A stretch of DNA of 64,000 nt from an uncultured Desulfobacteraceae bacterium. Its GTDB lineage: Bacteria > Desulfobacterota > Desulfobacteria > Desulfobacterales > UBA5852. This document shows positions 4,621 through 14,309 of this stretch, in pieces. How positions within the stretch are numbered: the stretch's first letter is position 1; every line of letters begins with the position of its first letter. Both the position numbers and the translations under genes were made by a program. The stretch covers positions 512,524 to 576,523 of the forward strand of contig CALNZV010000020.1 in NCBI GenBank assembly GCA_942491115.1, read 5' to 3'. The notes below the pieces were generated by a model, which was given only the letters and a program-made list of their open reading frames with translations, did not search any database and was not told the origin of the DNA.

Positions 4621-5724
4621 CTATTTCTTTAGAGCGTATTTTTCAGCGATCACATTGTAGTATGCATTTTCGGAGACCGATCCCCAAACGCCCACCTGGG
4701 CCTTGAATGTCTTGAATGCTTCATGAACCTTTCGGGACATGGCGTCTTTGTCAGCCTCTTCTTCAAGGGTTTCATCGGCCAGTTTGCGCAGGTCTTCCAT
4801 GAGCGGGTCCGGGAACCGCACCAGATTGACGTTGTGCTCCGAGATCAGGGTCTGCAAGGCGGCGCCGTTGCCGGCCTCGAATTCGGAAAGGCTCCACATG
4901 TTGGTTTCCGCCGCTACGGCGTCCACGATCGCCTGAAGATCTTTTGGCAGGGATTCGTAGGCCTTCTTGTTGAAAATAACCTCAAGGCATGTCCCCGGCT
5001 CGTGCCATCCAGGGTAGTAGTAATATTTGGCTGCTTTGTAAAATCCCATGCGAAGATCGTGCATCGGTCCGACCCATTCCGTGGCGTCGATGACCCCGCG
5101 CTCGAGGGAGGTGAAGATCTCCCCGCCGGGAAGAAGAACCACTGTCCCTCCGGCCTTGGCGATCACTTTGCCGCCCAGACCCGGGATGCGCATCTTCAAC
5201 CCCTTGTAATCGTCTATGGACTTCATCTCCTTTCGGAACCAGCCGCCCATCTGAACCCCCGTGTTGCCCTGGGGCCTGGGGATGACGTTAAAGGGAGCGT
5301 AAACCTCCTCCCACAACTGCAGTCCGCCGCCGCTGTAAAACCATGCGTTGATCCCCTGGGCGTTGAAGCCGAAAGGGACCGCTGCAAACCACTGGGCCGC
5401 CGGCACTTTACCGGCCCAGTAATATGAAGCGCCGCTGCCACATTCCACCGTTCCGTCGGAAACGGCGTCGAACACCCCCAGTGGGGGCACCAGCTCGCCG
5501 CCGGCGAACACCTGAATCTTCAGCCGCCCTTCGGAGACTTCCTCCACTCGCTTGGCAAACCGTTCCGCGCCGGTCTGAAGCACCGGCAGGTTGGGCGGCC
5601 AGGTGGAGACCATTTTCCACATGTACTTCTTCTGCGCGATGACCGCCGGAGCCGCCATCGTCGATGCCGCTGCCGCCGCCACGGCAGCAACACTCGTTTT
5701 TTTCAGGAAATCTCTTCTTTTCAT
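4621..5724 (-). CDS. dctP: TRAP transporter substrate-binding protein (DctP family, COG4663-like)
   Basis: 367 aa. Tat-like signal MKRRDFLKKTSVAAVAAAAASTMAAPAVIAQ. WKMVSTWPPNLPVLQTGAERFAKRVEEVSEGRLKIQVFAGGELVP is typical of TRAP solute receptors. AGGAAAGGAG RBS. Confidence 0.9.
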   Translation of the reverse strand: MKRRDFLKKTSVAAVAAAAASTMAAPAVIAQKKYMWKMVSTWPPNLPVLQTGAERFAKRVEEVSEGRLKIQVFAGGELVPPLGVFDAVSDGTVECGSGASYYWAGKVPAAQWFAAVPFGFNAQGINAWFYSGGGLQLWEEVYAPFNVIPRPQGNTGVQMGGWFRKEMKSIDDYKGLKMRIPGLGGKVIAKAGGTVVLLPGGEIFTSLERGVIDATEWVGPMHDLRMGFYKAAKYYYYPGWHEPGTCLEVIFNKKAYESLPKDLQAIVDAVAAETNMWSLSEFEAGNGAALQTLISEHNVNLVRFPDPLMEDLRKLADETLEEEADKDAMSRKVHEAFKTFKAQVGVWGSVSENAYYNVIAEKYALKK

Positions 5725-5788
5725 TTAGGGCTCCTTTCCTAGGTGGTGGTTGTCAGAGGAAAAACCCATCGACACGGTGAACGAAAGC

Positions 5789-5817
5789 ATCCTAATGATC
5801 TTGGACCATCGAATCAA
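5789..5817 (-). promoter_or_regulatory. candidate internal sigma70-type promoter for dctP
   Basis: Minus strand reads TTGATT-N17-TAGGAT inside the 192-nt dctM-dctP gap. Confidence 0.25.
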
Positions 5818-5916
5818 GCATTATTAAGTTAATAACCCGCCGTTGATCGATGAACATCGTTCAGTTTGTCGTGCTGGCGGATCTCCCCCACAGGATGACG
5901 GCGGTCTCGGCTCAGA

Positions 5917-7242
5917 TCAATTGCCGAAAACCACTTTCGGCAGCCAGGTAACGAGGGACGGGAAAAGGACGACGATTAGAAGCCCGATCAACTGAAAAAA
6001 GACAAAGGGGATGATACCCCGGTAGATATCACCGGTCTGAATTTCCGGCGGCGTCACCGCCTTCAGGTAGAAGAGAGAAAACCCGAAGGGCGGCGTCATG
6101 AAGGAGGTTTGAAGGTTGACGGCGATCAGGATGCAGAACCAGGCCGGGTCAAAGCCGAACTCGATCATAATCGGCGCCAGCACCGGGACGTGAATAAACG
6201 TGATTTCGATGAAATCCAGGAAAAATCCAATAACAAAGATGATACCCATGACGATGAAAAGCACGAACCACTTGCCATGGGTTTCGGCGATGCCCCCCAG
6301 GAACCCTCTGACCAGCTCGTCGCCCCCCATCCCCCGGAAGACAAGACCGAAGGCAGCGGCGCCCACCAGGATGATGAAGACCATACAGGTCAACTGCATG
6401 GTGGAGTCCATCACTTCTTTTAGAATCGTCAGGCTGAATTTTTTGTTGATAATCGTCAGGAAGGTCGCACCCACGGCCCCGACTCCGGCGGCTTCTGTGG
6501 GAGATGCGATGCCGGCGAAGATGGAGCCCAGAACGGCGAGCATCAGAAACAGGGGCGGGAACAAGGCACGGGTCACCTTCTTGAACAGGATCGACGGGGT
6601 GAGGGCGGCCAGTTCTGATTTGGGCGTTGCCGGAGCCCACTCCGGCCAGACCACGGCCGCGATAAGGATGTAGAGAATGTAGAGGCCCACCAGAACAAAA
6701 CCGGGCAGTACGGCGCCCATGAAAAGATCCCCTACCGGTACCCCGACGATGTCTCCGATCAGCACCAGTACGATGCTCGGGGGGATAATCTGCCCCAGGG
6801 TGCCAGAGGCGGAAACCGTCCCGGTGGCCAACTCCTTCCTGTATCCGCGTTTGAGCATGGTCGGAACGGCCAAAAGCCCCATGGTAACGACGGTAGCGCC
6901 GACAATGCCCGTCGAGGCGCCCAGTAGCGCCCCCACCACCACCACCGAAATGGCCAGACCGCCCCGCATTCGACCGAACAGTAGCCCCATGGTATTCAGC
7001 AAGTCTTCAGCGAGCCCCGACCGCTCCAACATGACTCCCATGAATACGAACAGGGGAACAGCCAGCAATGTGACGTTGGTCATGACCCCCCAGATGCGCA
7101 GCGGCAGCAGGTTGAAAAAGTCCCAGCCAAAGCCGATCAGCCCGAAGACCAAAGCGGTTCCCATGAGGGTAAAGGTGACGGGAAACCCCACCATCAGCAA
7201 AATGGTGAGCGCCAGAAACATCCAGCCCGGCAGGTATTCCAT
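5917..7242 (-). CDS. dctM: TRAP transporter large permease
   Basis: About 441 aa, highly hydrophobic multi-TM protein with DctM-like sequence throughout. ATG at 7242-7240 overlaps the dctQ stop (TGATG). Confidence 0.9.
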   Translation of the reverse strand: MEYLPGWMFLALTILLMVGFPVTFTLMGTALVFGLIGFGWDFFNLLPLRIWGVMTNVTLLAVPLFVFMGVMLERSGLAEDLLNTMGLLFGRMRGGLAISVVVVGALLGASTGIVGATVVTMGLLAVPTMLKRGYRKELATGTVSASGTLGQIIPPSIVLVLIGDIVGVPVGDLFMGAVLPGFVLVGLYILYILIAAVVWPEWAPATPKSELAALTPSILFKKVTRALFPPLFLMLAVLGSIFAGIASPTEAAGVGAVGATFLTIINKKFSLTILKEVMDSTMQLTCMVFIILVGAAAFGLVFRGMGGDELVRGFLGGIAETHGKWFVLFIVMGIIFVIGFFLDFIEITFIHVPVLAPIMIEFGFDPAWFCILIAVNLQTSFMTPPFGFSLFYLKAVTPPEIQTGDIYRGIIPFVFFQLIGLLIVVLFPSLVTWLPKVVFGN

Positions 7243-7772
7243 CAAGATTCTACCTCCGCCTCAGCATTTTTCCCAATGATGGTCAGAAAGCTCTTGAGTC
7301 CCAGAGAGATGCCCTGAAGGGTGATCAACCCAAACCCTGCGGGAATGCAGGCCTTGATGAGATACCGGTAGGGAATTCCGCCGGGGTCCGCGGATCCCTC
7401 CATGACGGCAAATGAGTTGCCGACGAACTTCCACGAAGTGACGATGACCATGTAGCAGCCGGGGAGCAGGAAAAACAGCACCCCCAGAAAATTGATCCAT
7501 GCCTTACCCTTGTCGCCAAAGCGCTGGTAGAAAATATCGACCCTGACATGACCGTCCTTGAGAAGGGTATAGCCGGCGCCCATAAGGAAAATGACGGCGA
7601 ATAGGTGCCATTCCAGCTCCTGGGTGAATACATAGCTCGTTTTGAATGCGTACCGCATCACGACATCGACGAAAACCACCAGGACGACCAGAGTGGTGAC
7701 CCAGGAGACCCCCTTTCCAACCCAGGTATTCAGAGTGTCGATCCACCGGCAAAGGGTCCGGATAAGCGCCAT
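7242..7772 (-). CDS. dctQ: TRAP transporter small permease
   Basis: 176 aa from the internal Met (MALIRTLCRWIDTLNTWVGK...). Four hydrophobic segments, located directly upstream of dctM. The longer ORF to 7832 has a non-native-looking N-terminus. Confidence 0.85.
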   Translation of the reverse strand: MALIRTLCRWIDTLNTWVGKGVSWVTTLVVLVVFVDVVMRYAFKTSYVFTQELEWHLFAVIFLMGAGYTLLKDGHVRVDIFYQRFGDKGKAWINFLGVLFFLLPGCYMVIVTSWKFVGNSFAVMEGSADPGGIPYRYLIKACIPAGFGLITLQGISLGLKSFLTIIGKNAEAEVES

Positions 7773-8195
7773 GGTTATTCCCTTTCTGACAAAAAAAAGC
7801 CGTCCGCTGTTGCGGGCGGCCGACGACGGCATCTTGGGTGACCGGCTGGGGATATGGGATCATGCAAAGGAGCACACCCTCGTTCATCGAAGTCGGAAAC
7901 CCTCAGTTCACAGGAGTATCCGCCGGTTCGGCTTGATGTTGGATAGAAATTGAGACTTCCATTTCGTATATTAGGGATTAAGATGGGTGTCAACCGGAGA
8001 CCGGTCGTTCGGGGGACCGACTGCCCAGATTCATTGACCTTCCCCCCCATTATTGAAGAGCACGCGACCCCGGCCCGGGCATGCCGCGTTCACCATTGCA
8101 GAGGGGTTTCCCGCGCATCCTTCGGGGAGACCGATACAGGGGAAAGATTCGTTGATGGACAGCGCTCCTCTCCGACCCCGACCGAGGATCACACG

Positions 8196-9419
8196 ATGTC
8201 TTCTTTTTCAAACGCCGAAAAGCAACTACTGACCGTGACCAGTTTCGGTCACTTCATGAGTCACTTCAACATGCTGACATTCCCCGCCCTGGCCATTCCA
8301 CTTGCCGGGGGACTGGACTTGCCCCTGGCCGAGGTCATGGGCCTGTCCTTTCCCATGTACCTGCTGTTCGGCCTAACCGCTCTCCCCTGGGGAATGATAG
8401 GAGACCGCTGGCGATCCGATCGTCTCATGGTCGTCTTCTTTCTCGGTGCTGGAATGGGGGGATTGGGTGCCGCTGTATTTATGGAATCACCGACGATGAT
8501 CGCCGCATCCCTTGGGGTGGTGGGCCTGTTTTCCGGCATTTACCACCCCATCGGGCTGGGAATGATCTCAAAGGGCGTGACACGCATCAGCGTTGCCATG
8601 GGCATCAACGGGATGTTCGGAAATCTGGGGTTGGCCATGGCACCGCTCCTGGCCGGCGTTGCCAATTGGATCTGGGGGCCAAGGGCGGCCTTTTTGATTC
8701 TGGCTGCCTTCAATTTCGCGGGAGCCCTCTGGGCCGCCAGGCTGCCCCATGGGACACCGCCGACCCGATCGGCATCAGTGGCCGAATCCCCGAACGGAAG
8801 CGGGCGTCAGGCCTTCGTGATCCTCCTGATGGCAATGATGCTGGGGGGAATCGTCTATCGGGGAGCCACTCTGACGACCCCCCCATTGCTGGAAATGAAC
8901 CTTCAAGGACTTCACCAGATGTTGACGCCTTTTGCCGGAGCCGCCCTGACCCCGAATCTGGAGGCCACCATCATCACCTCGGGTATTTTTCTGGTGGGAA
9001 TGATCGGTCAGTACACCGGCGGCAGGATGGCTGAACGGTTCGATCCCCGCTGGTGTTATTTGCTGTTTCACGCCTCCGCCCTTCCCATGGCGTTCATGAT
9101 GGCGAGGACCGCCGATCTGGGCCTGGTATCGGCTGCCGTGGTCTATTTTTTCTTTCTGCTCGGCATGCAGCCCGCGGAAAACACCTTGTTGGCCCGTCTG
9201 ACGCCGAAGCGTCTCCACCACTCGGCTTTCGGCGTCAAATTCGTTCTGACCTTCGGTGTCGGGGCCCTTGCCGTCAAAATGGTCGAAGCCATCGAGACGG
9301 CGCTCGATCTGGGTGCGGTGTTCATGGCCCTCGGCATCGGTTCAACCCTCCTGGTTGCCGTGATCCTGCTGCTCATCCGTCGAACAACCTCCGCGGTCGA
9401 TACCGTCGCAGCCAGTTGA
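8196..9419 (+). CDS. MFS transporter
   Basis: 407 aa from the ATG at 8196 (MSSFSNAEKQLLTVTSFGHFMSHF...). About 12 hydrophobic segments. The upstream part of the ORF (7950-8195, TTG start) looks non-coding. Confidence 0.85.
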   Translation: MSSFSNAEKQLLTVTSFGHFMSHFNMLTFPALAIPLAGGLDLPLAEVMGLSFPMYLLFGLTALPWGMIGDRWRSDRLMVVFFLGAGMGGLGAAVFMESPTMIAASLGVVGLFSGIYHPIGLGMISKGVTRISVAMGINGMFGNLGLAMAPLLAGVANWIWGPRAAFLILAAFNFAGALWAARLPHGTPPTRSASVAESPNGSGRQAFVILLMAMMLGGIVYRGATLTTPPLLEMNLQGLHQMLTPFAGAALTPNLEATIITSGIFLVGMIGQYTGGRMAERFDPRWCYLLFHASALPMAFMMARTADLGLVSAAVVYFFFLLGMQPAENTLLARLTPKRLHHSAFGVKFVLTFGVGALAVKMVEAIETALDLGAVFMALGIGSTLLVAVILLLIRRTTSAVDTVAAS

Positions 9420-9431
9420 AAGGCCTCCCCA

Positions 9432-10277
9432 ATGAACGACCGCTCATTGCCGATGGATGGATCGCAGACCGTGAGGGATTTGACGGGCGTCATCTTCGAC
9501 ATCAAAAAATTCGCCATTCACGACGGCCCCGGCATCCGAACCACCGTGTTTCTGAAGGGGTGCCCCATGACCTGCCATTGGTGCCACAATCCGGAGGGGC
9601 AGCGGCCCGACCCTGAACCGGTTCCCTGCCCCGGCCCGGCCCCTGGACCGGAAATGGCTACGGAAACCGTCATCGGCCGCCGGGTGCGCGCCGGAGACGT
9701 TCTCGCCGAAATCGAAAAAGACCGCCTTTTCTACGATGAAAGCGGCGGAGGTGCCACCTTTTCAGGAGGCGAGCCTCTGATGCAGCCCGATTTCCTTGAA
9801 GCGCTTCTCGACGGCTGTCGATCCGCATCGATCCACACGGTGGTGGACACCACGGGCTGCGTCCCTGCCCGCGTCTTGATGAGGATTATGGGTAAAGTGG
9901 ATTTGTTTCACTACGATATGAAACTGATGGACAGCCACATCCATCGGCGATTTACCGGTGTGCCGGTCGAGCCGGTTCTCGATAACCTCCAACGGCTGTC
10001 GGCTGCCGGCCGGCCTGTCGTCATCCGTTTTCCGTTGGTGCCGGGCGTCACCGACGACGACGACAACCTGACGGCCATTTCCGACTGGCTCCGTTCACTG
10101 CCGACGCCGCCCGTCCGGCTCGATGTGCTTCCCTTCCACCATCTGCATGCCGGCAAATACGCCCGTCTGGGCCGACGGGACCCCATGGTCTGCACCGACG
10201 GGGCATCGGCCGAGGAGGCCAGATCCGCCGCCGATTTTTTCAGAACCGACGGTTTCACCGTTACCATTGGAGGATGA
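9432..10277 (+). CDS. glycyl-radical enzyme activating protein (radical SAM)
   Basis: 281 aa. DGPGIRTTVFLKGCPMTCHWCHNPE (CX3CX2C). GGGATFSGGEPL motif. Stop overlaps the GRE start (ATGA 10274-10277). No ferredoxin-like CX2CX2CX3C insert is present. Confidence 0.9.
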   Translation: MNDRSLPMDGSQTVRDLTGVIFDIKKFAIHDGPGIRTTVFLKGCPMTCHWCHNPEGQRPDPEPVPCPGPAPGPEMATETVIGRRVRAGDVLAEIEKDRLFYDESGGGATFSGGEPLMQPDFLEALLDGCRSASIHTVVDTTGCVPARVLMRIMGKVDLFHYDMKLMDSHIHRRFTGVPVEPVLDNLQRLSAAGRPVVIRFPLVPGVTDDDDNLTAISDWLRSLPTPPVRLDVLPFHHLHAGKYARLGRRDPMVCTDGASAEEARSAADFFRTDGFTVTIGG

Positions 10278-12646
10278 ACCCGATGACACCGAGAATCCAG
10301 CAGCTTCGACGGGCCAGTCTGGAGGCCCCTGCATCCATCTCCCGGGAGAGGGCACAGCTCGCCACGGGATTCATGAAAGGGGCCGAAGGGGCCGGCGACG
10401 CGATTCCCGTCATGCGGGCCAAACTCTTCAGGCACATCCTCGAGCACAAGTCCATCTGGATCGGCGACGGGGAACTCATCGTGGGGGAAAGGGGTCCCAT
10501 GCCGAAGGCGACACCCACCTACCCCGAGATCTGTCTCCACACCATCGACGACCTTGACACCCTCGCCTCCAGGGAGAAGGTGGCATTCGCCGTGGACGAT
10601 GGGGTGAAGCAGGCCTATGAGGAAACGATCATTCCCTACTGGCAAGGGAAGACCATCCGGGAGAAGATTTTCTCCTCTGTGCCGAAAGCCTGGATCGACG
10701 CCTACGATGCCGGTGTATTCACCGAATTTCAAGAGCAGCGCTCACCCGGGCACACCGTGCTGGGCGACAAGATTTACCGCCATGGATTCCTTTATATGAT
10801 CCAAGAGATCAGGGCAACAGTGGCCGCCCTGGATTTCGTGAACGACCCGAGAGCCCTCGACCGCAGAGACGAACTTCAGGCCATGGAAATCGCCGCCGGG
10901 GGGCTCATCGCCTTTGCCGGTCGGTATGCCGATGCCCTGGCTGCGCGGGCTGCTGAAGAGACCGATGTCCAACGGGCTGACGAGTTGTCGACGATGGCCC
11001 TTATCTGCCGCAACGTACCCGCCCGGGCGCCCGAGACCTTCTGGGAAGCCCTTCAGTACTACTGGTTCGTCCACTTGGGGGTCATCACCGAGCTCAATCC
11101 CTGGGATGCCTTCAATCCCGGGCGGCTCGACCAGCACCTGTATCCGTTCTACCGGCGGGAGATCGACGCGGGAACCCTCGATCGTGAGAGCGCCAGGGAA
11201 CTGCTACAGGCCTTCTGGATCAAGTTCAACAATCACCCCGCCCCGCCCAAGGTCGGGATTACGGCCAAGGAAAGCAACACCTACGTGGACTTCGCCCTGA
11301 TCAATATCGGCGGCGTCCGACCCGACGGCGCCGATGCCGTCAACGACTTGTCCTACCTGATGCTCGAGGTGGTTGAAGAGATGCGGCTGCTGCAGCCAAG
11401 CGCCATGGTGCAGTTGAGCAAAAAAAACCCGGATCGTTTCCTCAAGCGGGCCCTTTCCATCATCAAAACCGGTTTCGGTCAGCCGTCCCTGTTCAACACC
11501 GACGGCATTATCCAGCAGTTGACGGGCCAGGGGAAACGCATCGAGGATGCCCGCTGCGGCGGGGCCAGCGGTTGCGTCGAAAGCGGGGCCTTCGGCAAGG
11601 AATGCTATATTCTGACGGGGTATTTCAACCTGCCGAAGATCCTTGAACTCACCCTTCACAACGGCCTGGATCCCCGAACCGGCCGGCAAATCGGCCCTGA
11701 AACCGGAGACCCACGCTCCTTCGACAGCTTCGCCGCCGTTATGGAGGCGTTTTCACGTCAGCTCCGCCATTTCATCGACATCAAGATCCGGGGAAACAAT
11801 ATCATCGAGAGGATCAACGCGAAGTACATGCCGGTCCCCTTTCTCAGCCTGTTGATCGACGATTGTATATCCAGGGGCCTGGACTACAACGAGGGGGGCG
11901 CCCGGTACAACACATCCTATATCCAAGGGGTGGGGCTGGGCACCCTGACCGACAGCCTGTCCTCGATCCGCACCCATGTATTCGAGCGGGGCGTGCTGAC
12001 CATGGGGGAATTGCTGGCATTGCTGGAATCGGATTTCGACGGCAGTGAGGCACTGCGACGTCGTTTTCTCGAAAACACGCCACGCTACGGCAATGATGAC
12101 GACGGGGCCGACGACCTGCTATCCGAAATCTTCGAGCAGTTTCACGGAGCGGTGGACGGACGCCCCAACACCAAGGGGGGGCACCACCGGATCAATCTAC
12201 TTCCCACGACTAGCCACGTCTATTTCGGCAGCCTCCTTGGCGCCACGCCCGACGGGCGGCAATCGGGCGCCCCTCTGTCGGAAGGCATCTCACCCGTGCA
12301 GGGCGCCGACCGCAGGGGGCCGACGGCGGTGTTGAAATCCGCCGCCAAAATCGATCACCTCCGCACCGGGGGGACGCTGTTGAACCAGAAGTTCACCCCG
12401 ACGATTCTCGAGGACGATGCCGGCATCGACCGACTGGCAAGCTTGGTTCGAACCTATTTCCGGATGGATGGACATCACATTCAGTTCAATGTGGTGGATG
12501 CCGACACCCTCAGGCGTGCCCAGTCGGAGCCCGAGAACTACCGCGATCTGATCGTCCGGGTGGCGGGCTATAGCGACTATTTTGTCGATCTGACGCCCGA
12601 ACTTCAGGAAGAAATCATCGGCAGAACTGCCCATTCGGTTATCTGA
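10274..12646 (+). CDS. hypD: glycyl radical enzyme, trans-4-hydroxy-L-proline dehydratase (HypD)-like
   Basis: 790 aa. Glycyl radical motif RVAGYSDYF near the C-terminus. Thiyl loop GGASGCVESG (Cys-x-Glu, eliminase type, not the PFL Cys-Cys). Length and residues at 160, 278, 434, 436, 450, 645 and 765 coincide with the HypD residues as I recall them. Alternative start at ATG 10283 (GGAGG at 10269-10273). Confidence 0.7.
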   Translation: MNPMTPRIQQLRRASLEAPASISRERAQLATGFMKGAEGAGDAIPVMRAKLFRHILEHKSIWIGDGELIVGERGPMPKATPTYPEICLHTIDDLDTLASREKVAFAVDDGVKQAYEETIIPYWQGKTIREKIFSSVPKAWIDAYDAGVFTEFQEQRSPGHTVLGDKIYRHGFLYMIQEIRATVAALDFVNDPRALDRRDELQAMEIAAGGLIAFAGRYADALAARAAEETDVQRADELSTMALICRNVPARAPETFWEALQYYWFVHLGVITELNPWDAFNPGRLDQHLYPFYRREIDAGTLDRESARELLQAFWIKFNNHPAPPKVGITAKESNTYVDFALINIGGVRPDGADAVNDLSYLMLEVVEEMRLLQPSAMVQLSKKNPDRFLKRALSIIKTGFGQPSLFNTDGIIQQLTGQGKRIEDARCGGASGCVESGAFGKECYILTGYFNLPKILELTLHNGLDPRTGRQIGPETGDPRSFDSFAAVMEAFSRQLRHFIDIKIRGNNIIERINAKYMPVPFLSLLIDDCISRGLDYNEGGARYNTSYIQGVGLGTLTDSLSSIRTHVFERGVLTMGELLALLESDFDGSEALRRRFLENTPRYGNDDDGADDLLSEIFEQFHGAVDGRPNTKGGHHRINLLPTTSHVYFGSLLGATPDGRQSGAPLSEGISPVQGADRRGPTAVLKSAAKIDHLRTGGTLLNQKFTPTILEDDAGIDRLASLVRTYFRMDGHHIQFNVVDADTLRRAQSEPENYRDLIVRVAGYSDYFVDLTPELQEEIIGRTAHSVI

Positions 12647-12686: not shown

Positions 12687-13679
12687 TCATTGGGCGGCCC
12701 TCTTTCGGGATAAAACGGCCTCAAGGGTTTCCTCGAACACCCCTGCCATGGGCCCGCCTTGTTCCACGGCCATTCGGGCGGCAGTTAACGCCTCGTCGAG
12801 ACGGTTCATGGACATGAGCACATGGGCCAGGTTGTTGCAGCCCGGGGCATAGGGGGGCACCTGACGGCACAGACGGTCGAATACCACGGCGGCATCGGCT
12901 TCGAGACCAGCGCCGTATAGGCTGTTGCCCAGGCCCATGCGGGCTTGAGGACTGTCAGGCCATCGATCTAAAGCCAACCGATAGCCTGCCGACGCAGCTT
13001 CCCATTGCCCCGCCTGCTCCAGGGCCGCGACGGCCCGCAAAACGGCCGGGGGGTCTCCGGAGGCCGGCAGCCGGCCTGGCGGCAGAACCACCAGCCCCCA
13101 GAAATCCGCCAGTCCCCAGGTAAAACGAAACCGATCCAGGGATTGCGCCTCCGGGCGCTGCCGTCCGCTGTGCAGCCAGATCCGTCCGGCTTCCGGATCG
13201 ATACCCACCACCACCGAATAGTGCCAGGCGGAAACCAGCCCCCCCCCACGATCCTCCAATACGATCACCGGATGTCCTCCCTCGAGCTCGCCATAGAGCG
13301 CGTCCATCCCGGAAATGGGATAGGCGAGCCTCCCGTATCGGCGGGCGGCGCCCGTCATGTCGGACTGAAAGGACCCTTTGCGTCCCGGTGTATACACCAA
13401 TGGAACCAGCAGATCCGGGGAGATGGCCCGTCCCCCCCATGCCATCACCATGGCCAGGGCGGCCGGCCCACACTGGTAACGATCCTGCACGATGACCGGC
13501 ACCCCTTCAATCCATAGGGCCGGCCGTCCCTCCAGGATCGGGGGCTGACGCCACCCGGTACAGCCTGCCAATAGAATGACGAAGAGAAGGAAAGAGCGGC
13601 GGCTCCAACATCGCCTGCGTTTCGAAATCAGTCCTGGTGAGGTATTCGGATGCCGGGTCTCGACAAGATCTGGAACCAT
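12687..13679 (-). CDS. PA2778-type cysteine peptidase (C39-like) with C-terminal TPR, lipoprotein
   Basis: 330 aa from the ATG at 13679. Lipobox LLFVILLAGC. QDRYQCGPAALAMVMAW (papain-like Cys) and WHYSVVVG (His). TPR-like C-terminal part. The annotated 515-aa ORF is an artificial 5' extension. Confidence 0.7.
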   Translation of the reverse strand: MVPDLVETRHPNTSPGLISKRRRCWSRRSFLLFVILLAGCTGWRQPPILEGRPALWIEGVPVIVQDRYQCGPAALAMVMAWGGRAISPDLLVPLVYTPGRKGSFQSDMTGAARRYGRLAYPISGMDALYGELEGGHPVIVLEDRGGGLVSAWHYSVVVGIDPEAGRIWLHSGRQRPEAQSLDRFRFTWGLADFWGLVVLPPGRLPASGDPPAVLRAVAALEQAGQWEAASAGYRLALDRWPDSPQARMGLGNSLYGAGLEADAAVVFDRLCRQVPPYAPGCNNLAHVLMSMNRLDEALTAARMAVEQGGPMAGVFEETLEAVLSRKRAAQ

Positions 13680-13774
13680 CCGAAAGCAGACAGGCGTCGT
13701 GGAGGGGGCCATCTGGGGAACCTTCCCAGCCCCCCCGGTCATGATCCCGAAGGGGTCTGGAGAATGGGTAGGGA

Positions 13775-14185
13775 TTAGATTCGTTTCACGAAGGGAAAGA
13801 TCTCGGTATAGCCAAGAATATCCGTGACCAAGAGCACCAGAAAAACAATGAGCGACGCGCCGACGATGATCCCGAGAGTACCCCCGCCAGCGGGCATCTG
13901 ATCGATCCGACGGTTGATCTCCCGAACCTCGGTATCCGTTAGCGCGGCGACCCTCGCCCCGGCCTCGTCCGGGGAAATCCCTTGGGAGGAGAGAATATTC
14001 CGAACATCTTCCCGGTTCAAAAAGTCCTGGATCCTGCCACGCTCTGGGGCCTGAAGATCGCTTTCGAGGCAGCTGTCGGTGCCGATCATACGGGCATGGG
14101 CCACCGGTGCGGCCACCTGGGTGGCGCATACGGCGGCAACTAGAAAAATGGCTATCGCTTTGGTGAGGGCCTTGATGGATGGCAT
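13775..14185 (-). CDS. PA2779-type small protein (signal peptide plus C-terminal TM)
   Basis: 136 aa. GAGGAG RBS. Signal MPSIKALTKAIAIFLVAAVCATQVAAPVAHA. C-terminal TM GIIVGASLIVFLVLLVTDILG. Located directly upstream of the PA2778-type peptidase. Confidence 0.6.
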   Translation of the reverse strand: MPSIKALTKAIAIFLVAAVCATQVAAPVAHARMIGTDSCLESDLQAPERGRIQDFLNREDVRNILSSQGISPDEAGARVAALTDTEVREINRRIDQMPAGGGTLGIIVGASLIVFLVLLVTDILGYTEIFPFVKRI

Positions 14186-14309
14186 AGGCAGTCTCCTCTG
14201 GTTGGGGTGAGGGCAATGACGCCTTTGGCGCCAAAAAGTGGCCATACAGGGCCTCGATACCGGCGACGGGGTCGGAAACAGCACTGGATGGTCCGGCCCA
14301 TGCACCGCG

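What the first reader, a model, noticed from the sequence alone, without database searches (positions are those of the whole stretch)
9432..10277. GRE activase lacking the ferredoxin-like auxiliary-cluster insert, which is replaced by a Pro-rich linker
Seen directly: about 48 residues separate CPMTCHWCHNPE from the GGGATFSGGEPL motif (GQRPDPEPVPCPGPAPGPEMATETVIGRRV...). This stretch contains a single Cys and no CX2CX2CX3C motif. Established knowledge: activases of PFL2-class eliminases (glycerol dehydratase, CutC, HPAD, BSS and, as far as I recall, HypD) carry a ~50-60-aa insert binding two auxiliary [4Fe-4S] clusters, and only PflA/NrdG-type activases lack it. A PflA-like minimal activase translationally coupled (ATGA) to a HypD-type GRE is therefore unusual. 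It looks like a lineage-specific deletion of the auxiliary domain.
Basis: partly seen in the sequence, partly recalled or inferred. Interest (0 to 1): 0.6.

Follow-up and report, generated by a model that had tools for sequence, protein, structure and literature searches.

The report
Hydroxyproline dehydratase activase lacking ferredoxin domain
The gene really encodes an activating enzyme for a hydroxyproline-degrading radical enzyme that lacks the usual extra iron-sulfur domain, but the same short form occurs next to this enzyme in many bacterial phyla and in Asgard archaea, so it is an ordinary member of a large, little-discussed subfamily and not a local oddity.

Summary
Observation confirmed. 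ORF 9432-10277 (+) is a 281-aa radical-SAM glycyl-radical-enzyme activase. Its stop overlaps (ATGA) the start of a 790-aa GRE that passes NCBIfam's HypD equivalog cut-off and keeps all 13 HypD active-site residues. Between CX3CX2C and GGEP there is no CX2CX2CX3C motif and only one Cys.

The protein belongs to the HypD-activase/TIGR02494 lineage, not the PflA lineage, and the insert was lost. The loss is not peculiar to this genome. 113 of 119 closest homologues are equally short. 43 of 69 scorable HypD loci from different species (Desulfobacterota, Bacteroidota, Ignavibacteria, Calditrichota, Verrucomicrobiota, Omnitrophota, Denitrovibrio, Asgard archaea) have a short activase directly upstream. 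On a HypD tree all short-activase loci form one clade (one inferred loss; monophyly in 81/100 bootstraps). An assembly artefact is excluded, because an 86%-identical homologue from an independent metagenome aligns without gaps.

C. difficile-type and gut Parabacteroides HypD activases keep the insert. Insert-less activases of another eliminase class (GRM5) are already in the literature.

It most likely works like PFL-AE, with one [4Fe-4S] cluster. Interest is modest: a natural comparison set for the unexplained ferredoxin domain.

The parts
9432..10277 (+). Glycyl-radical-enzyme activating enzyme (radical SAM), 281 aa, without the ferredoxin-like insert
   Evidence: ORF. Pfam PF04055 and PF13353. 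TIGR02494 scores 265.6 bits against a cut-off of 174. AF2 model has pLDDT 93.7. Best fold match is PFL-AE 3CB8, TM 0.93 normalised to the target.
9561..9584 (+). CX3CX2C motif (C44, C48, C51), ligands of the radical-SAM [4Fe-4S] cluster
   Evidence: Sequence. Invariant in 78 homologues. Aligns with C29/C33/C36 of PFL-AE (PMC13450708).
9597..9674 (+). Pro-rich linker G56-I81 that takes the place of the roughly 55-residue two-cluster ferredoxin-like insert; holds one non-conserved Cys (C66)
   Evidence: pLDDT is 71-82, with a small hairpin at residues 62-64 and 79-81. P61 and G82 are conserved in at least 90% of homologues; the rest varies.
9765..9776 (+). GGEP motif (G112-P115), the SAM-binding 'GGE' motif of radical-SAM enzymes
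   Evidence: Invariant in alignment A2. Aligned with GGE of PFL-AE. The role is taken from established knowledge of radical-SAM enzymes.
10274..12646 (+). [quoted passage not shown]
   Evidence: NF043068 scores 1222.6 against 1100. 6VXC scores 1009 bits, against 407 for HplG. F152, R156, H160, D278, K326, S334, D339, F340, C434, E436, Y450, T645 and G765 are all conserved. Residue roles are from PMC7077986.
12566..12568 (+). Codon of Gly765 (RVAGYS), the glycine on which the activase is expected to install the radical
7950..9419 (+). MFS transporter ORF, same strand, ending 12 nt before the activase start; probably the first gene of the operon. The true start is probably internal to this maximal ORF.
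   Evidence: Pfam MFS_1 covers residues 98-440. ORF.
4621..7832 (-). Divergent TRAP transporter genes: dctP 4621-5724, dctM 5917-7245, dctQ 7242-7832
   Evidence: Pfam DctP, DctM and DctQ. The same arrangement occurs in the Desulfobacterales MAG locus L003.

Best explanation
This is a functional, minimal activating enzyme for the adjacent HypD. It has the radical-SAM core only. One [4Fe-4S] cluster on C44/C48/C51 binds and reductively cleaves SAM, and the 5'-deoxyadenosyl radical abstracts hydrogen from Gly765 of HypD, as PFL-AE does for PFL. Electrons presumably reach the radical-SAM cluster directly from a soluble flavodoxin or ferredoxin; this step is inferred. The roughly 25-residue linker is a surface loop or hairpin stub left where the two-cluster ferredoxin-like domain used to be. 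The protein descends from insert-bearing HypD activases. The insert was lost once, or very few times, in the ancestor of a large HypD/activase subfamily, and that gene pair has since spread across many bacterial phyla and Asgard archaea. The window holds an ordinary member of that subfamily, in a Desulfobacterales-like genome, placed next to candidate hydroxyproline transporters.
For: Family and motifs. TIGR02494 is above cut-off. The best equivalog model is the HypD activase (262 bits), well above PflA models (183 and 131 bits). DGPGIR, CX3CX2C, GGEP and the other core motifs align with PFL-AE and are invariant in 78 homologues.

Fold. AF2 pLDDT is 93.7 and the best match is 3CB8, TM 0.93.

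Partner. HypD is above the equivalog cut-off and keeps all catalytic and binding residues. The genes overlap by ATGA.

Breadth. 113 of 119 nearest homologues are short. 43 short against 26 long activases lie directly upstream of HypD in species-representative genomes. 73 short, 58 long and 16 intermediate forms occur among the 150 nearest cluster representatives. Short activase/HypD pairs occur in Desulfosarcina ovata, a Heimdallarchaeota genome and a Desulfobacterales MAG that is syntenic with the window.

Single loss. On the HypD NJ tree the Fitch count is 1 change, long to short. A shuffle null gives a mean of 22.3 and a minimum of 17. The short clade is monophyletic in 81 of 100 bootstraps, with C. 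difficile and gut Parabacteroides HypD included.

Plausibility. IbsAE and 4-Hpad-AE can install the glycyl radical without auxiliary clusters (PMC10239695).
Against: No biochemistry exists for any short HypD activase that I could find. In 4-Hpad-AE the ferredoxin domain was reported to be needed for a lasting radical (cited in PMC13450708), so activity without it cannot be taken for granted. The activase-only tree is poorly resolved: 3 changes in the point tree and 4-13 in bootstraps. The trees are distance-based NJ trees on a sample biased towards relatives of the query, namely the best 80 of at least 595 loci. A trans-acting ferredoxin encoded elsewhere in the genome cannot be excluded.
Confidence: 0.85

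Rival explanations
1. It is a private, recent deletion, an assembly error, or a decaying pseudogene in this genome.
For: The linker is unusually Pro-rich and GC-rich. Its sequence is shared only with P0002.
Against: The reading frame is intact. There is no tandem repeat. An independent metagenome homologue is 86% identical with no gap through the linker. More than 100 homologues have the same spacer length of 45-64 residues. All core motifs are conserved. The model is confident.
Confidence: 0.02
2. It is a PflA-type minimal activase recruited to a HypD locus by non-orthologous displacement, not a HypD activase that lost its insert.
For: The architecture and predicted fold equal PFL-AE. The insert is absent.
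Against: HypD-activase and TIGR02494 models score 262-266 bits, against 183 and 131 bits for PflA models, even without the insert. The flanks of the former insert (NPE[GS]Q..PE and ..GR..[ST]V) are shared with long HypD activases, and about 20 residues more than in PflA remain. In activase trees the short forms group with long HypD activases, and E. coli PflA lies on a long separate branch. The partner HypD tree places the short clade inside long-activase HypDs.
Confidence: 0.05
3. The auxiliary-cluster function is still required but is supplied in trans by a separate small ferredoxin that docks on the activase, possibly at the linker.
For: The ferredoxin domain has been linked to radical persistence in 4-Hpad-AE (PMC13450708). 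The start of the linker (P61, PEPE-like) is fairly conserved.
Against: No ORF of at least 50 aa with a CX2CX2CX3C motif exists anywhere in the 64-kb window. No ferredoxin gene is conserved next to the pair in L001-L003. IbsAE works without its auxiliary clusters.
Confidence: 0.08

Closest known systems
C. difficile HypD activating enzyme (HypD-AE; NCBIfam NF043069 T4HPD_activ_SAM)
   Same: It is the best-scoring equivalog model. It has the same radical-SAM core and motifs and the same kind of partner (HypD). The expected reaction is the same: a glycyl radical on Gly765.
   Different: The window protein lacks about 55 model positions (roughly 40-95) that hold the eight auxiliary Cys, and it scores 262 bits against a cut-off of 425. 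The activase gene lies upstream of hypD here, whereas it lies downstream in the gut Parabacteroides locus L087.
E. coli pyruvate formate-lyase activating enzyme PflA (PDB 3CB8, 3C8F)
   Same: Single-domain radical-SAM architecture with no auxiliary clusters. The predicted fold superposes with TM 0.93. DGPGIR, CX3CX2C and GGE motifs are aligned.
   Different: Identity is only about 28%. PflA models score below their cut-offs (183 against 232 bits). The spacer is about 20 residues longer than in PflA. The partner is a PFL2-class eliminase, not PFL.
Activases of GRM5 microcompartment loci (1,2-propanediol dehydratase GRE)
   Same: This is a documented case of a PFL2-class eliminase activase that lacks the ferredoxin-like insertion (PMC6325248).
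   Different: It has a different GRE partner and a microcompartment context. No GRM5 sequence was compared here, so whether the loss is independent is unknown.
E. coli PflC and YbiY (TIGR02494 activases)
   Same: They belong to the same subfamily. They show that the insert region is evolutionarily labile.
   Different: PflC keeps a shortened insert with about one cluster's worth of Cys, and YbiY has a full-length but partly degenerate insert. The window protein has none.

Membership tests
Radical-SAM glycyl-radical-enzyme activases (TIGR02494 PFLE_PFLC subfamily) | Whole-protein score above the curated cut-off | tested here: met
   265.6 bits against a cut-off of 174.35
Radical-SAM glycyl-radical-enzyme activases (TIGR02494 PFLE_PFLC subfamily) | CX3CX2C cluster motif, N-terminal DGPGIR motif and GGEP SAM motif | tested here: met
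   C44/C48/C51, D31-R36 and G112-P115. These are invariant in 78 homologues and aligned to PFL-AE.
Radical-SAM glycyl-radical-enzyme activases (TIGR02494 PFLE_PFLC subfamily) | Gene adjacent to a glycyl radical enzyme gene | tested here: met
   ATGA overlap with the 790-aa GRE. The same pairing occurs in 72 related loci.
Radical-SAM glycyl-radical-enzyme activases (TIGR02494 PFLE_PFLC subfamily) | Ferredoxin-like insert with two CX2CX2CX3C motifs (typical of the subfamily, not strictly defining) | tested here: not met
   49-residue spacer with one Cys. No Fer4 Pfam family is matched.
Radical-SAM glycyl-radical-enzyme activases (TIGR02494 PFLE_PFLC subfamily) | SAM cleavage and glycyl-radical installation activity | not testable with these tools
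   Requires anaerobic biochemistry and EPR.
HypD activase equivalog (NF043069) | Score above the equivalog cut-off of 425 bits | tested here: not met
   261.9 bits in two stretches. The shortfall partly reflects the missing insert. Even the long environmental HypD-linked activases score only 343-407 bits, so the cut-off is tuned to close relatives of the seed sequences.
HypD activase equivalog (NF043069) | Partnered with a bona fide HypD | tested here: met
PflA (TIGR02493 / PRK11145) | Score above the cut-off | tested here: not met
   183.1 against 231.75 bits, and 131 against 375 bits.
[quoted passage not shown] | Score above the equivalog cut-off | tested here: met
   1222.6 against 1100 bits. 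6VXC scores 1009 bits, against 407 bits for HplG 7VUA.
[quoted passage not shown] | Catalytic and substrate-binding residues H160, D278, D339, E436, C434, S334, F340, Y450, T645 and G765 (PMC7077986) | tested here: met
   All are identical in the window protein and in 47 of 47 HypDs that have short activases. The E. coli YbiW and PflD controls differ at the HypD-specific positions.

The most novel reading that the evidence does not exclude
A single ancient loss of the ferredoxin-like domain defines a monophyletic HypD/activase subfamily spread over about ten phyla, including Asgard archaea. Its sister lineages, with the same substrate residues and the same gene order, keep the domain. If the short activases work alone, they form a natural matched pair for finding out what the unexplained auxiliary-cluster domain of GRE activases does. 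They are also a small, simple non-PFL activase for structural work.
Probability: 0.55. Interest if true: 0.45.

Novelty: new variant of a known kind. Interest (0 to 1): 0.3.

Why it matters
A 2026 review still states that the vast majority of GRE activases carry the ferredoxin-like domain, that only PFL-AE and RNR-AE consist of the radical-SAM domain alone, and that the function of the domain is unknown (PMC13450708). The data here show that a large share of environmental HypD systems use a domain-less activase, while closely related HypD systems keep the domain. For this eliminase the domain therefore appears dispensable in nature. The two forms could be compared directly for radical yield and persistence, choice of electron donor, oxygen tolerance and solubility. 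For genome annotation, short HypD-linked activases fall below the NCBIfam HypD-activase cut-off and are named only generically. For this particular window, nothing unusual needs explaining.

Tried and rejected
An exact-sequence look-up of the window activase found no contig. The cluster look-up returned no accession or name, so the source organism is inferred only from its best relatives (Desulfobacterales) and from synteny with L003.

Levin et al. 2017 (PMC5705181) and Vey et al. 2008 (PMC2571006) are not held. The cluster content of C. difficile HypD-AE therefore rests on the NCBIfam model and on the reconstitution protocol in PMC7077986.

A phrase search for 'lack(s/ing) the ferredoxin/auxiliary' combined with 'glycyl radical' found nothing. 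A search for HypD in Asgard or Desulfobacter papers found nothing relevant.

I expected gut Bacteroides HypD activases to be short. A search with the Bacteroidaceae MAG activase returned only unnamed environmental sequences. The B. vulgatus fragment 3CAN turned out to belong to a 302-aa insert-bearing activase, whose Parabacteroides relative lies downstream of a HypD. That idea was dropped.

A stand-alone ferredoxin near the locus was looked for and not found.

I considered HplG (trans-4-hydroxy-D-proline C-N lyase) as the GRE's identity and rejected it (407 against 1009 bits).

A second AF2 model, of a long activase, was not run. The tools cannot superpose two models, so it would not have changed the verdict.

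Full report
**1. What is in the window**

ORF 9432-10277 (+) encodes 281 aa. Its TGA stop (10275-10277) overlaps the ATG (10274) of a 790-aa ORF, 10274-12646. Pfam finds Radical_SAM and Fer4_12 in the first protein and PFL-like plus Gly_radical in the second.

NCBIfam places the first protein in the GRE-activase subfamily TIGR02494, at 265.6 bits against a cut-off of 174. The HypD activase model NF043069 is the best equivalog (261.9 bits, below its cut-off of 425). It matches in two pieces, with query 77-281 on profile 96-299, which leaves out roughly profile positions 40-95. The PflA models score lower, at 183 and 131 bits.

Residues C44, C48 and C51 form the CX3CX2C motif. E55 to G105 are separated by 49 residues that contain one Cys (C66), no CX2CX2CX3C motif, and 8 Pro in G56-I81.

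An MFS transporter ORF ends 12 nt upstream on the same strand, and a TRAP transporter (dctPQM) lies divergently. The window has 59% G+C.

**2. The partner is a genuine HypD**

- The GRE scores 1222.6 bits on the HypD equivalog NF043068, above the cut-off of 1100.
- It scores 1009 bits to C. difficile HypD (6VXC), against 520 bits for glycerol dehydratase and 407 bits for HplG.
- Its numbering coincides with native C. difficile HypD. F152, R156, H160, D278, K326, S334, D339, F340, C434, E436, Y450, T645 and G765 are all conserved. These are the residues shown by structure and mutagenesis to bind Hyp or act in catalysis (PMC7077986).

**3. It is not an artefact**

- No tandem repeat lies at 9400-9800.
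- P0002, from a JGI metagenome, is 86% identical over all 281 residues with no gap. The match includes the linker and the N-terminal MNDRSLPMD, which supports the ATG at 9432.
- All core motifs are invariant in a 78-sequence alignment.
- An AlphaFold2 model has mean pLDDT 93.7 and pTM 0.90. Confidence dips to 71-82 only in residues 61-80, where a small hairpin (62-64 and 79-81) is predicted.
- The best structural match is PFL-AE 3CB8, with E 5e-24 and TM 0.93 normalised to the target.

**4. How common the short form is**

- **Nearest homologues.** Among the 119 non-self best homologues, 113 have a spacer of about 45-74 residues with 0-2 Cys (all but one within 49-64 residues). Only 6 have a spacer of 95-96 residues with 8-10 Cys. 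These are P0019, P0053, P0054, P0062, P0105 and P0117. Named sources include Desulfobacterales, Desulfonema, Desulfosarcina, Desulfococcus, BRC1, and Heimdall-, Hod- and Promethearchaeota.
- **Partners of the short forms.** Short activases sit directly upstream of HypD-sized GREs (about 788 aa) in three loci. One is Desulfosarcina ovata, where GntR, ornithine-cyclodeaminase-like and proline-racemase-like genes follow. One is a Heimdallarchaeota genome. One is a Desulfobacterales MAG whose locus is syntenic with the window.
- **Survey starting from HypD.** A scan of one genome per species returned the best 80 of at least 595 HypD relatives, at 62-73% identity. In 69 of these the upstream activase could be scored. 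43 are short and 26 are long.
  - Short: Desulfobacterota, many Bacteroidota (including the isolate Prolixibacter denitrificans), Ignavibacteria, Calditrichota, Verrucomicrobiota, Omnitrophota, Zixibacteria, Denitrovibrio and a Promethearchaeati archaeon.
  - Long: Anaerolineae/Chloroflexota, Aminicenantes, Bacillota, Gemmatimonadota and Acetothermia, plus one Desulfobacterales MAG and one Ignavibacterium MAG.
- **Exhaustive HMMER search of 50%-identity cluster representatives.** It gave 13,197 hits. Among the best 150, 73 are short, 58 are long and 16 are intermediate. The intermediates are half inserts with 4-5 Cys, or long inserts without Cys.
- **HypD residues across the survey.** All 47 HypDs with short activases keep all 13 HypD residues. 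The activase is upstream on the same strand in every scored locus.

**5. Origin of the short form**

- Long HypD-linked activases align to NF043069 positions 2-299 in one piece. Short ones align only from about position 92 onward, plus the N-terminus.
- The multiple alignment shows a clean absence of both Cys motifs. The flanks are conserved: NPE[GS]Q..PE before the gap and GR..[ST]V after it.
- A HypD neighbour-joining tree rooted on E. coli YbiW and PflD puts all short-activase loci in one clade. Parsimony needs one change, from long to short. A shuffled-state null gives a mean of 22.3 and a minimum of 17.
- After adding C. difficile HypD and a gut Parabacteroides HypD (both with long activases), the count is still one change. 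The short clade is monophyletic in 81 of 100 bootstraps.
- The tree of the 239-column activase alignment is less resolved, with 3 changes in the point tree and 4-13 in bootstraps. This is still far below its null of 22.6.
- The best reading is one loss, or very few, in an ancestral gene pair that was then inherited and transferred as a unit.

**6. Comparison with what is known**

- The 2026 GRE review says that the vast majority of activases carry the ferredoxin-like domain, that PFL-AE and RNR-AE have only the radical-SAM domain, and that the function of the domain is unknown (PMC13450708).
- Ferlez et al. 2019 note that GRM5 activases lack the insertion (PMC6325248). An eliminase-class GRE with a minimal activase therefore has a published precedent.
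- IbsAE and 4-Hpad-AE can form the glycyl radical without auxiliary clusters, although radical persistence suffered in 4-Hpad (PMC10239695).
- C. difficile HypD-AE is reconstituted with 12 equivalents of Fe and S.
- The gut Parabacteroides/B. vulgatus-type HypD has a 301-302-aa insert-bearing activase downstream of the GRE.
- I found no paper that describes short HypD activases.

**7. Mechanism**

Shown here: the radical-SAM core is complete, the motifs are conserved, the model matches the PFL-AE fold with high confidence, the gene is coupled to an intact HypD, and there is no auxiliary Cys motif.

Inferred: one [4Fe-4S] cluster, reductive SAM cleavage, hydrogen abstraction from Gly765, and direct reduction by a soluble flavodoxin or ferredoxin.

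No ferredoxin-motif ORF exists in the 64-kb window. This argues against, but does not exclude, a partner acting in trans.

**8. Verdict**

The insert has been lost, and the characterised type of HypD activase has it. The feature is neither rare nor specific to this lineage. The window's gene is a typical member of a large, old subfamily that is uncharacterised in the literature. Interest is modest, at 0.3. Its value lies in the subfamily as a natural comparison set, not in this locus.

Noticed in passing
Cluster representatives P0142, P0197, P0263 (Cys-free spacers of 83-90 aa) and P0181, P0199, P0235, P0251, P0255 (4-5 Cys); E. coli PflC and YbiY (L085:6259-7137, L084:7613-8512): The insert region of GRE activases comes in graded states: a full two-cluster form, a half form with one CX2CX2C..CP motif (as in E. 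coli PflC), a full-length form that has lost its Cys, and a deleted form. The region looks like a hot-spot of remodelling.
   Followed up: partly
L051:1630-3987 (MAG assigned to Ignavibacterium album): This HypD homologue has RVADYS in place of RVAGYS, so Asp replaces the radical glycine, and it has Cys in place of R156. It sits next to a long activase. It could be a sequencing error, a dead gene, or a non-canonical radical enzyme.
   Followed up: no
L053:1586-3657 (Desulfosporosinus sp. FKB): Two insert-bearing activase genes lie in tandem upstream of one HypD. The distal one scores 169 bits and carries STPES in place of HNPES after the cluster motif.
   Followed up: no
L087:699-8040 (gut Parabacteroides-type contig): The HypD locus has the opposite gene order, with the GRE first and then a 301-aa insert-bearing activase. 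An Asp-Al_Ex family transporter and an aminotransferase follow. PDB 3CAN (B. vulgatus) is the C-terminal part of this type of activase.
   Followed up: partly
L001:9155-11988 (Desulfosarcina ovata AP021879): Downstream of the short activase/HypD pair lie genes for a GntR regulator, an ornithine-cyclodeaminase/mu-crystallin-like protein and a proline-racemase-family protein. This looks like a hydroxyproline catabolic cluster. It is absent from the window.
   Followed up: no
window 7950-9419 (+): The maximal MFS ORF starts at a TTG, and about 80-95 residues precede the Pfam match. The real start is probably internal. L003, which is otherwise syntenic, lacks this MFS gene between the TRAP genes and the activase.
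   Followed up: no
window 12687-14234 (-) and L003:9246-10217: A C39-like peptidase/TPR protein is conserved immediately downstream of HypD on the opposite strand, in both the window and the related Desulfobacterales MAG. No link to hydroxyproline metabolism is evident.
   Followed up: no
L013, L046, L047, L070 (Anaerolineae/Anaerolineales loci): These HypD loci have 4 kb of upstream sequence but no activase ORF within the stretch held. The activase may be encoded elsewhere in these genomes.
   Followed up: no
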